The translations under genes were made by a program, and so were the position numbers. From assembly GCA_977017645.1 (NCBI GenBank), contig OZ360238.1, positions 59,334,001 through 59,398,000 of the forward strand: a DNA stretch of 64,000 nucleotides, written 5' to 3'. Below, one piece after another: positions 4,000 through 7,420 of this stretch. The DNA comes from Torpedo marmorata (lineage: Eukaryota). Under the pieces are notes generated by a model. That model saw nothing but the letters and a program-made list of their open reading frames with translations. It had not been told where the DNA came from and ran no database searches. Each line of letters opens with the position of its first letter. Position 1 is the stretch's first letter.

Positions 4000-5594
4000 A
4001 CTAAACACGTTACCTTGGAGAGGAAAAAAGTGCAGGTATGATCTTTGTCAAATATAACAGTGTGTTTTCTTGTTTGATGGATGTCACTGCTCATCTAATA
4101 ATAATTTCAAAAATGATGCTTTTATGAATGGCCAGTCTCTTTGTATTTCTTCCATCATAAATCTCTTGGGGTTCATGTGTCCTTTATCTTGGATTCTTTG
4201 TGCAACTTGCCATATGCCATGAAAATTAAGCAAGTGGAATTCCAGATTATCTGTTCTCAAAAGCAAACCTAAGTAGAATTTATGAAAATGAAATGCGTGA
4301 CGATCCCACAATTGTTTCAGCTAACAGACTGCATAAGGCACTCAGTTTAAGATATCATAAAATGCTGTTTAGTGCATTCTGCAATAGGCTGTCACATTAT
4401 TTGTGTGAACAATACCAAGGACATGCATAGACACAATACCTGAATAGGGTAAAAGTGAATGAATTAGAATATTCTCATTCAAACCAGGCTCCTTATGTGG
4501 ACAATCCAGCATGGATTTAATAGAATTTCTGTTTCTACTCCTATAATTAAACAAACTAAAAAATGTATTTGCATATGGAAGTCAGAAAAGATGACCCCCA
4601 TCTTTAGAAAAGATCTTATGTAGTACATTTCAACACTGATAATAAATAATTCAGTGTGCTAGTCAAGGAACTGGAACTGACAATCACAGAAGAATGGAAT
4701 TTTTGACTTGTTTCAAGCAGCACTGCTTATTTTGCCCAACAAGAAACAAAAAGATGCAGTGTCTTTGTGCTTTCAAATGCATGATACTGCTGGCAACATA
4801 TTTTACCATGTTTATCAGGCATAAGAGACTTGCTCTGAGAATACACTGCATACTAGTTCTTTATGCATTCATGGATTACTGTCATACAGCTTTCAAAATG
4901 TGATAAGTTTACATTTATTTATGTTTTTTTTACTTAGTCAGAGGTTACCATTAATAATAGATAACTTCTTTATTCCACGCTTTGCTTTTTAATACAAAGT
5001 AATGTGATTTACAAAATGTAAAATTCAACAAGATTGGTGGTCGCTTTCAAAACTACCTGAGAGAGGCAACAATTCCCAAGATAGATCAAATATTTCATCC
5101 CTTGTCTGCCATCGTTACTGATTCCCCCATGGGTTTAGGGTTGATCTCTTCACTTTCCGCTGCTCCTTCCACCTGTGCCACTCTGTGTATTATGTTTAAA
5201 TAGGCTGATTTTCTGAATATGCATGTTGTATTCTAACATATCCACTCATGCGATCCTCAAAAACTGTGGCTTGTTTATGAGAAAAGTAATCTAAATGTTT
5301 TGAAAAGTAGAGACAGAAAGTGTTTATTGTGTGTACAAGAGATGAAGCAATCACCACTTTGATCTTGAAGAAAACTGAGAATTTTTTCTCTTCACAAATG
5401 CTATTCACAGGTTGTGTTGGTTCCTTTGATGGTGCACACACATCAAGTTCATAATCTCTCCGTTATTATCATGAGAGAGATTAAATATAAGATAACTGAA
5501 TAAAACCATTACAATTTCCATTGGATGTGTACACTACTGACTGTATTGAGCTGGCTTTTTATTGGAGCAAAAACGTAAACTGGACAGAAAGGTG

Positions 5595-5954
5595 CAGTGG
5601 TTTTCAAACTTTTTCTTTCCACATAATCCCTCTGCCATAGGTGCTCTGTGATTAGTAAGGGATTACTTAAGGTGGTATGTGAGTGGGGAAAAAAGGTTGA
5701 GAACCACTGCTCCAGACCCAATTGTTACTGAAATATTTTGCTTGAGAAAAATTGTCATTAGCCCATTTCCTTTGGAGTTATGAAACCGTGCACATAACGA
5801 GTCAATTAGGTACGATTAAAACAGTGGTTTTCAAACCTTTTTCTTTCCACTCACATACCACCTTAAGTAATTCCTTACTAATCACAGAGCACCTGTGGCA
5901 TAGGGATTGCTTAATGTGGTATGTGAGTGGAAAGAAAAAGTTTGAAAACCACTG
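5595..5954. mobile_element. Composite hAT-type MITE (two palindromic units plus spacer)
   Basis: Units CAGTGGTT(T/C)TCAA...TTGA(G/A)AACCACTG at 5595-5709 and 5822-5954. The spacer also occurs at ~45542-45629. Confidence 0.8.
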
Positions 5955-6500
5955 CTCTAGCGCGACTCCTCATTGCTAGTTAGGCAACAACATTTTTGGC
6001 ACCTGCTCTGTGTCAATCTGACTTAGCCATTGTGTAGAAGGGTTCAAGGTGAGGAAGGAATCTCAAATCAGGCTTCAAAACAAAAAGAAAATTTACAAAG
6101 CAAGTTTTTAAAATATTGAAGAATATAAAATTTGAACTGATGTCTTTTAATCATCATAAATGAAATCACTGCAGGCTATTATCTCCACATTGCATAATCC
6201 TTCTTCCATTGCAACATAATTGTGACATTTTAAATGTTTTCTTACATATATTTACATATTAGATTTACATTTAAAAATACATATATAGTTAAAATTACAT
6301 TTACATTTAAAATTGCATTAAATTAAATCAACATCCTAACATACAACAGCCTAAAGAGAGACAATACAATAGTGAAATATACAGTGACGAGAGTTATTTT
6401 TGGAAATTCAGTCACAGGTATAAATTAGAAAATTACTTACTGAAAAAATAATATCAATGCTATATATTTTTCTTGCAAGTAAGCTTCTGTGTATAATAAA

Positions 6501-6656
6501 AAAGTAAACACGAAAATCTGTAGACACCGTGGTTAGAGTAAAAAACACAAAAGCTGGAGAACTCAGCAGGTCAAACAGTGTCTTTTATGTAGCAAAGGTA
6601 GAAATACATAACCGACGTTTCGGGCTTGAGCCCTTCATCAAAGTATATAATAATAA
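6501..6656 (-). mobile_element. Short Penelope-derived insertion with a minimal hammerhead-like motif
   Basis: Flanked by the 13-bp direct repeat TGTGTATAATAAA (6488-6500, 6657-6669). The minus strand reads TTGATGAAGGGCTCAAGCCCGAAACGTCGG. Confidence 0.75.
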
Positions 6657-7420
6657 TGTGTATAATAAAGTGGCTGTTTTACTTTCATCCTGTGCAAAAG
6701 TATGAATGTTTTATAGTTTTATATAAGGATCATTCTTAGATAAAATTTGTTCATGATCCTTCTTAAACCTTATAAATAGACCTAGTCTTGTCTCCTTAGG
6801 AAGTCAATGTAAGAATTTTCCACACAATTTTTGGGGAAATAAAGACCAATGAGATTCTTCAGGACAAATTATAAATTGTCTAAGGCTGATGCTGTATTTC
6901 ATGGGATTTAATAGGATGCCAATCCTACTGGATTCTTCCAGCTGAATGCTGTATGCCAGGAGCAACCATCCAGAGAAGAAAATGGTGAAGTACAAATGCT
7001 GAAGAAAAAAAATCAAAACCATGAGCTCACATTTCGGTAAAATGAATAAAATAACAGACGTCACCATCTGGAATGCTTTGTAAAATGAAGATCCAATCTG
7101 TTCAGCAGAAGCCTGTGTCTCTAGGCCCAGGCCAGCAGGGGACCTGCCAGAATCCACGTTCTTGACAGAAATCCACCCCCTCTAAAAATAGGGAAATTCG
7201 TTGAGTGGGATGACAGACAAAGCAAAACCATATCCCAGCATGCAGTGCTGCATCCCACTGAGACAACTGATTGATCAGTTGAAGACGATGTCAAATTATC
7301 AATAACAATCTAGTTTCTATCATGCACAGACGCGAAGTAAGGGGGAGCTGAAGTACATTGAGTCTCCCAACACATCTCATAGATTTTATCTGGCAAGCAA
7401 ACAACTCCGCAACTTCCTTA

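What the first reader, a model, noticed from the sequence alone, without database searches (positions are those of the whole stretch)
6488..6669. 156-bp retro-insertion built around a minimal hammerhead ribozyme, with a 13-bp TSD
Seen: the minus strand reads atatacT-TTGATGA-A-GGGC-TCAA-GCCC-GAAA-CGTC-GGTTATGT, between perfect TGTGTATAATAAA repeats. Known: this fits the minimal type-I hammerheads of Penelope-like elements (YUGANGA core, stem II, GAAA, a palindromic ACGU stem III that works as a dimer, GUC cleavage triplet). Here position 3 is U and there is an extra A before stem II; atac(t)/ggttat can form stem I. Inference: a tiny non-coding, ribozyme-bearing unit that inserts on its own, either retrozyme-like or a severely truncated Penelope.
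Basis: partly seen in the sequence, partly recalled or inferred. Interest (0 to 1): 0.7.

Follow-up and report, generated by a model that had tools for sequence, protein, structure and literature searches.

The report
Penelope retrotransposon stub with hammerhead
This insertion is real, but it is the tail end of a very abundant Penelope-like jumping gene that carries a known kind of minimal hammerhead motif; it is likely a dead-end by-product rather than a self-spreading element, although such stubs end unusually often at the motif's front edge and not at its predicted cut site.

Summary
In detail: a perfect 13-bp target-site duplication (TSD) flanks 156 bp bearing a minimal type I hammerhead (U3·G8 core). 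The insert is 146 nt of the 3' pseudo-LTR of an autonomous Neptune-type Penelope-like element (98% identical to a copy with a 1033-codon open RT/GIY-YIG frame) plus 10 nt of filler. Of 99 position-ordered copies, 37 run on into the ORF. Short and long copies share every recurrent variant tested, so no separate retrozyme or SINE lineage is seen. 3' ends are discrete (about +103 or +141), matching the two internal RT starts known for Penelope. 5' ends are not random: 25 of 81 copies reaching the motif stop at -6..+11, and genome-wide junction counts at -3 to -5 (1055-1913) exceed those at the cut site (274) and at -13 (241). The likely cause is reverse transcriptase running off an RNA start (about 45%) or terminating at the hairpin (about 35%); no cap-G signal was found. 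About 98% of 107,761 motifs have U3. Cleavage is untested. The scan noted both features before, in this genome and others. A known kind of element, modest interest.

The parts
6488..6500 (+). Target-site duplication, copy at the element's 3' end (its last bases overlap the T-run where reverse transcription began)
6501..6646 (-). 146-nt 3' pseudo-LTR of an EN+ Penelope-like element, positions -5 to +140 relative to hammerhead U3
   Evidence: 98% identical over 153 nt to the 3' end of long copy L084; identical over 0..+100 to long copies in L219
6501..6537 (-). Optional 'tail' between the two preferred 3' ends (about +103 and +141), inferred to be the two internal RT start sites
   Evidence: 3' ends 28 of 75 at +100-109 and 41 of 75 at +130-149; PMC11167929
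6607..6647 (-). Minimal type I hammerhead motif: stem I 6647-6642 with 6613-6607, core 6641-6635 (U3·G8), extra A 6634, stem II 6633-6622, GAAA 6621-6618, ACGU palindrome 6618-6615, predicted cut 6614/6613
   Evidence: cleavage untested
6647..6656 (-). 10-nt filler at the 5' junction, a TTA-type repeat resembling the start of the target site (slippage inferred)
   Evidence: sequence
6657..6669 (+). Target-site duplication, copy at the element's 5' end
26993..27098 (+). Second stub of the same family in the window: begins about 2 nt before U3, ends near +103 (no tail), 12-bp TSD

Best explanation
The insert is a 5'-truncated copy of the 3' pseudo-LTR of an abundant autonomous Penelope-like retrotransposon, likely made when that element's own enzyme nicked the target, began reverse transcription inside the element's RNA and stopped at a preferred point just in front of the hammerhead motif. 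Shown: sequence identity to the end of ORF-bearing copies, two discrete 3' ends, the TSD, the excess of 5' ends at -6..+11, their scarcity at the cut site, and the absence of a short-copy lineage in the sample. Inferred from the anole element (PMC11167929): target-primed reverse transcription started at +141, some 40 nt upstream of the ORF start. Inferred, about 45%: the stop marks the 5' end of an RNA begun at an internal pLTR promoter near -5, so the stub is a run-off copy of the mRNA leader. The hammerhead is likely a passenger here, slow or protein-dependent, and did not define the insert's end.
For: The window copy matches long copy L084 at 98% over 153 nt. L084 has a 1033-codon open frame with a Pfam RVT_1 match (E 2.7e-6, 27.7 bits, just under the 29.6 cut-off) and, read by eye, a CX4CxxC linker and a C-terminal LIYCxxC..LYIGET motif. 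37 of 99 position-ordered copies run into this ORF. In 7 of 25 loci fetched with the ORF's 5' part, a direct pLTR ends at +141 and runs straight into the 5' UTR and ATG, so the insertions' 3' end is an internal site of the RNA. 3' ends are bimodal, and 29 of 33 inverted arms begin at +97..+107 while their partner ends near +141, as expected from two start sites. 5' ends: 25 of 81 at risk stop at -6..+11 (0.017 per nt) against 0.002-0.004 per nt at +12..+59 and 0.0006 at -41..-120; for non-inverted copies the best 18-nt window holds 13 of 27 ends (0 of 20,000 uniform simulations; p 0.0001-0.033 under three truncated exponentials). Genome-wide junction patterns: -3 1055, -4 1913, -5 1078, -7 740, -13 241, cut site +28 274. 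59 of 60 loci fetched from the -4 and -5 lists are true junctions. Many inverted copies start at -4 or -5 without any palindrome at the junction. No variant is shared by two or more of 21 short copies and absent from 91 long ones; nearest-neighbour test p=0.29. D. virilis Penelope has an internal pLTR promoter (PMC2377424).
Against: Against run-off as the cause: no excess of a cap-derived G before the start (24 of 100 at -5, 16 of 100 at +28, about 25 expected; 17 of 68 unpaired rows at -4; hand tallies). None of 7 upstream pLTRs of full-length copies begins at -6..+11: five run on to -118, -711, -810, -826 and beyond -873, two begin at +16 and +33. The edge is not single-base sharp, and 11 of 99 copies stop at -7..-23. 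The -4 count includes palindromic inverted pairs counted twice (32 of the first 100 rows) and the -7 count is inflated by a likely sequence variant (about 43 of the first 100 rows). Two insertions with different 14-bp TSDs share one unusual inverted junction, so short units can be recopied now and then. The lineage test covers only about 100 nt and 21 short copies. No RNA data were available.
Confidence: 0.85

Rival explanations
1. Same identity, other cause of the preferred stop: the RT terminates or switches template on finishing a long hairpin (-6 to +35) that is followed, in the direction of copying, by a U-rich tract. The stub is then a structure-induced truncation and marks no RNA start.
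For: The predicted lowest-energy fold is one extended hairpin with its 5' foot at about -6, z = -2.4 for the 53-mer. A stop of about 30% per pass fits five upstream pLTRs passing it (chance of 0 stops in 5 is about 0.17). No cap-G excess.
Against: A stall on RNA structure is expected at the 3' foot (+19 to +35), where ends are scarce. Both arms of inverted pairs often end at -4 to -6, in L286 with unrelated filler between them.
Confidence: 0.35
2. An independent non-autonomous family (SINE- or retrozyme-like) of about 110 or 147 nt is transcribed from its own copies and mobilised by the Penelope protein.
For: Thousands of copies share near-common ends and carry TSDs. pLTRs can act in trans (PMC3846280). 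One short inverted unit was copied twice.
Against: No short-specific variants and no clustering. The copy is a monomer, not a tandem. Solo copies lack the ORF-start sequence that the anole protein needs downstream of the RT start (PMC11167929). The recopied junction occurs only 2 times in the genome.
Confidence: 0.07
3. The hammerhead cut defines the template: self-cleaved or circularised RNA pieces are copied into the genome as such.
For: The motif is kept: stem II is paired in 93% of cells across 30 chosen motifs and core position 7 varies freely. Two upstream pLTRs begin at +16 and +33, near the cut.
Against: The insert keeps the 33 nt upstream of the cut. Junctions at +28 number 274 against more than 1000 at each of -3, -4 and -5. 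The core is U3·G8. Hammerhead mutants did not affect insertion in the anole system.
Confidence: 0.03

Closest known systems
5'-truncated insertions and solo pLTRs of canonical EN+ Penelope-like elements, Neptune/Nematis type (PMC8557442, PMC3846280; passages)
   Same: RT with C-terminal GIY-YIG and CX2-5CxxC linker, partial tandems forming pLTRs, frequent inverted 5' copy, optional 30-40 bp tail, TSDs, heavy 5' truncation.
   Different: 5' ends pile up at the hammerhead's 5' edge, which I did not find in the passages read. The clade is assigned by motif only; no RT tree was built.
Minimal hammerheads of metazoan PLEs (Cervera and De la Pena 2014, PMC4209133; parts 1-2 of 4)
   Same: Type I, no stable helix III, palindromic 15.2-16.2, extra nucleotide between A9 and G10.1, G10.1-C11.1 pair, mostly found as single motifs from truncated PLEs.
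   Different: The core is U3·G8, neither C3-G8 nor the U3-A8 covariant named in that text. Helix II is short (4-5 bp). The paper's figures and supplements, which mark exceptional core changes, were not seen.
Poseidon element of the green anole, PAc (Frangieh et al. 2024, PMC11167929; parts 1-2 of 4)
   Same: Two internal RT start sites bounding the tail, AT-rich targets, no sign that the cleaved RNA is the template.
   Different: Here the start sites lie in the 5' UTR about 40 and 80 nt before the ATG, the hammerhead is wholly non-coding, and the element has the Neptune-type linker.
Non-LTR (animal) retrozymes (PMC7229834 passages; bioRxiv 10.64898/2026.07.22.740005 parts 1-3 of 5)
   Same: Small, non-coding, type I hammerhead, related to PLE pLTRs.
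   Different: Those are tandem repeats whose units are cut from ribozyme to ribozyme. This is a dispersed monomer with TSD, with ends away from the cut site and no lineage of its own.

Membership tests
EN+ Penelope-like element (parent) | Single ORF with RT and C-terminal GIY-YIG endonuclease contiguous with this sequence | tested here: met
   1033-codon frame in L084, RVT_1 E 2.7e-6 (below the curated cut-off); the GIY-YIG motif was read by eye, Pfam did not report it
EN+ Penelope-like element (parent) | Partial-tandem pLTR upstream of the ORF | tested here: met
   7 of 25 loci
EN+ Penelope-like element (parent) | Inverted 5' copies and optional 30-40 bp tail | tested here: met
   39 of 99 copies inverted; 29 of 33 arms begin at +97..+107; bimodal 3' ends
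Neptune/Nematis clades | CX2-5CxxC linker between RT and EN | tested here: met
   CARRRCNTC in the L124 and L090 translations; definition from PMC8557442
Neptune/Nematis clades | Placement in an RT phylogeny | not tested
   no reference PLE proteins were fetched
Minimal type I hammerhead | Core UGA.GA / GAAA, stems I and II, palindromic helix III, extra nucleotide after A9 | tested here: met
Minimal type I hammerhead | Watson-Crick pair between positions 3 and 8 | tested here: not met
   U3·G8; all of the first 100 listed motifs have U3; at most 1,895 of about 107,761 have C3
Minimal type I hammerhead | Compensatory changes in stems | tested here: inconclusive
   30 hand-picked motifs: stem II 93% paired but only 2 cells changed on both sides; stem I 60% paired; score 0.284 against 0.229 shuffled (2 of 500), sequences related
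Minimal type I hammerhead | Self-cleavage after GUC, as dimer or with protein | not testable with these tools
   the hammerhead-shaped monomer (-6.7 kcal/mol) lies above an alternative hairpin (-12.9); the same hairpin is predicted for a C3 copy
Non-LTR retrozyme | Tandem array of hammerhead-bearing units | tested here: not met
   single unit between TSDs; nearest other motifs are over 10 kb away
Non-LTR retrozyme | Own lineage apart from the autonomous element | tested here: not met
   (21 short against 91 long copies, about 100 nt)
Non-LTR retrozyme | Expressed as circular RNA | not testable with these tools
   no RNA holder listed

The most novel reading that the evidence does not exclude
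The thousands of stubs form a fossil map of Penelope's insertion reaction: a protein dimer primes both target strands at two internal RNA sites (+103 and +141) and runs off an RNA that starts at the hammerhead's first base, giving strong-stop-like copies, while a lineage with over 100,000 motifs has thrived with a wobble (U3·G8) catalytic core. That would show that ribozyme cleavage does not make the insertion template in vivo and would locate a vertebrate PLE promoter.
Probability: 0.4. Interest if true: 0.5.

Novelty: new member of a known kind. Interest (0 to 1): 0.28.

Why it matters
The insertion itself is ordinary: one of tens of thousands of Penelope stubs. What the family adds is a testable handle on an open question, whether PLEs need their hammerhead to cut. 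About 98% of motifs here have a U3·G8 core, copy ends avoid the cut site, and they gather at the motif's 5' edge. A 5' RACE experiment and a cleavage assay would settle which mechanism makes the stubs.

Tried and rejected
Rfam scan at E up to 10: no hammerhead family matched; 17 weak hits, all below gathering score. Cut-site origin: rejected. Separate short-copy lineage: not found. A family built on the shared inverted junction of L203/L205: only 2 exact copies genome-wide. Cap-derived G, a lead from note e1-9899633: not reproduced in hand tallies; 3 TSD-bearing simple copies among the 60 loci have a filler ending in G, inconclusive. Splicing into the pLTR as cause of the ends: rejected by reasoning, since ends spread over about 17 nt. 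An initiator-like CTCATA at -8..-3 (consensus recalled, no call) is too degenerate to count. RNA evidence: no RNA holder listed; laying contigs of four coded runs showed the family covers the stretch in each but cannot show RNA starts. Folding: the double-hammerhead drawing (-11.7 kcal/mol) is far above the best dimer fold (-33.2), which says little about a protein-assisted ribozyme. Literature: 'hammerhead + C3U' gave 2 papers, neither on PLEs; a search for UUGANGA, TTGATGA or U3-G8 with hammerhead and Penelope gave 0; 'Penelope + shark + hammerhead ribozyme' gave 1 review. Scan note e1-9979019 says the U3 change has appeared in print; I did not find that source, so I do not claim it is unpublished. 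Supplements of PMC11167929 held no hit for four terms; its Fig. S2 and the figures and supplements of PMC4209133 could bear on both the end pile-up and the core variant and were not seen. Rows dropped: L054 (duplicate of L053); L244, L245 (tandem copies of L243) and L234 (same locus as L195); L221 (no alignment). L094 and L129 have only 500 bp upstream; L057 was classed as inverted by eye. Whether the insertion lies in a host gene was not examined, nor was an empty site found.

Full report
Observation. The two 13-mers lie at 6488-6500 and 6657-6669 and enclose 156 bp. The minus strand carries the motif as described. Positions below count from hammerhead U3 (window 6641) as 0; the predicted cut falls before +28. 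Rfam has no hammerhead match here, but the motif fits the published minimal hammerheads of Penelope-like elements (PLEs), including the extra nucleotide after A9 (PMC4209133, parts 1-2 of 4 read).

What it belongs to. A DNA search of the 6.2-Gb genome returned copies 96-99% identical over query positions 24-175, many of which continue upstream into a frame encoding RT and GIY-YIG motifs. To avoid selecting by score, I searched a 30-nt tag near the 3' end: 3,686 exact matches, 0 for the reversed control, and took the first 100 in order of position on contig C1, 99 after dropping one duplicate. One copy, L084, holds a 1033-codon open frame with an RVT_1 match; the window copy is 98% identical to its last 153 nt. 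37 of 99 copies run into the ORF; 56 are simple, 39 carry an inverted 5' arm and 4 a direct piece. Searching with the ORF's 5' part, 7 of 25 loci show a direct pLTR ending at +141 that continues into a short 5' UTR and the ATG. The linker CX4CxxC points to the Neptune/Nematis type (PMC8557442 passages). So the insert is 146 nt of pLTR (-5 to +140) plus 10 nt of filler.

3' ends. In a second sample, 76 motif matches in 60 regions covering the first listed matches, 28 of 75 aligned copies end at +100-109 and 41 at +130-149. In the first sample 29 of 33 inverted arms begin at +97..+107. This is the known optional tail. In the anole element it lies between two internal RT start sites, both target strands are cut and extended, ORF sequence downstream of the start is needed, and hammerhead mutants insert normally (PMC11167929, parts 1-2 of 4). 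I infer the same chemistry here.

5' ends. They spread from +81 to beyond -3200, but 25 of 81 copies that reach +11 stop by -6, a rate of 0.017 per nt against 0.002-0.004 downstream and 0.0006 at -41..-120. The bins were chosen after seeing the data; a scan statistic allowing for that gave 0 of 20,000 under a uniform null and p 0.0001-0.033 under three exponential nulls for simple copies, and weaker support for inverted ones (p 0.009-0.33 under the exponentials). Genome-wide, patterns of two mismatching bases followed by exact element sequence gave 1055 at -3, 1913 at -4, 1078 at -5, 740 at -7, 241 at -13 and 274 at the cut site. These are raw counts: the two-mismatch filter passes roughly 0.46-0.64 of true junctions (my estimate from base composition), -4 double-counts palindromic pairs, and -7 includes a likely variant. 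59 of 60 loci checked at -4 and -5 were real junctions, 26 simple and 33 inverted. The window holds a second stub that starts at about -2 and ends near +103 with a 12-bp TSD.

Is there a separate small family? Over positions 0 to +100, 21 short simple copies and 91 long copies share all recurrent variants; none is confined to two or more short copies; nearest neighbours of short copies are short in 21% of cases against 18% under permutation, p=0.29. The test has limited power. Against it stands one case of a short inverted unit copied twice with different 14-bp TSDs, the only two exact copies of that junction in the genome.

The ribozyme. The motif pattern matches 107,761 times; all of the first 100 rows have U3, and a slightly looser C3 pattern matches 1,895 times, with more varied stems. 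C3-G8 is a core pair whose natural covariant is U3-A8 (PMC3088659 section 8); of 301 motif matches in my fetched loci, overlapping loci included, 280 were U3·G8, 18 C3-G8 and 3 U3-A8. Stem II stays paired in 93% of cells across 30 chosen motifs, mostly by G·U changes, and true double changes are few. Energy models prefer an alternative hairpin that buries the core, also in a C3 copy. Activity is untested; low or protein-assisted cleavage is what published minimal hammerheads show.

Mechanism and rivals. Best reading: the autonomous element's protein nicked an AT-rich target, started at +141 and stopped at the preferred point near -5. I favour run-off at an RNA start in the pLTR (about 45%), given the internal promoter of D. 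virilis Penelope (PMC2377424 passages), the fairly sharp upstream edge, and the scarcity of ends at the hairpin's 3' foot. Against it: no cap-G excess (hand tallies), and five of seven upstream pLTRs of full-length copies pass the point while none starts there. That pattern fits a partial stop at the hairpin about as well (35%). An independent SINE or retrozyme family (7%) and templates made by ribozyme cleavage (3%) are poorly supported.

Papers seen. PMC4209133 parts 1-2 of 4; PMC11167929 parts 1-2 of 4 and a blank supplement search; bioRxiv 10.64898/2026.07.22.740005 parts 1-3 of 5; passages of PMC8557442, PMC3846280, PMC2377424, PMC7229834, PMC7151607, PMC6155905; PMC3088659 passages and section 8. 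Earlier scan notes report the same stub pile-up in other genomes and the U3 core in this one; I had reached both readings before opening them, and they are not independent support.

Verdict. A real, young, TSD-flanked Penelope stub: a new member of a known kind. Interest 0.28, carried by the non-random stop and the wobble core, not by this copy.

Noticed in passing
window 26993-27098 (+): Second stub of the same family, from about -2 to +103, without tail, 12-bp TSD.
   Followed up: yes
window 17206-about 17300 (+): Older, diverged PLE pLTR (83% over 58 nt) with a U3 motif that has lost G12.
   Followed up: partly
L203 and L205 (G000 C1, 88 kb apart): Two short inverted-pLTR insertions with different 14-bp TSDs share one junction with an 18-nt filler; only these two exact copies exist, which suggests local recopying of a short unit.
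   Followed up: partly
L286, near the match: Inverted pair whose two arms both end at -4 and are joined by a short filler resembling TTAGGG telomere repeats.
   Followed up: no
L026 (about 1001-1658), L220, L226, L147: pLTR sequence joined to the first 100-150 nt of the ORF; L026 has two direct motif copies 500 bp apart. These could be internally deleted, retrozyme-like derivatives that keep the protein-binding region.
   Followed up: no
G000 C2 72969121-72969300; C11 71430839-71430954: Short tandem arrays (38-bp and 30-bp period) of pLTR pieces seen in the pattern listings.
   Followed up: no
window 5594-5713 and 5826-5957: Two short inverted-repeat elements with CAGTGGTT ends (MITE-like); they explain the weak miRNA-type Rfam hits.
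   Followed up: no
L135-L141, L144, L146, L158: One near-full-length copy with the same upstream flank recurs on many small contigs, likely a segmental duplication or large tandem repeat.
   Followed up: no
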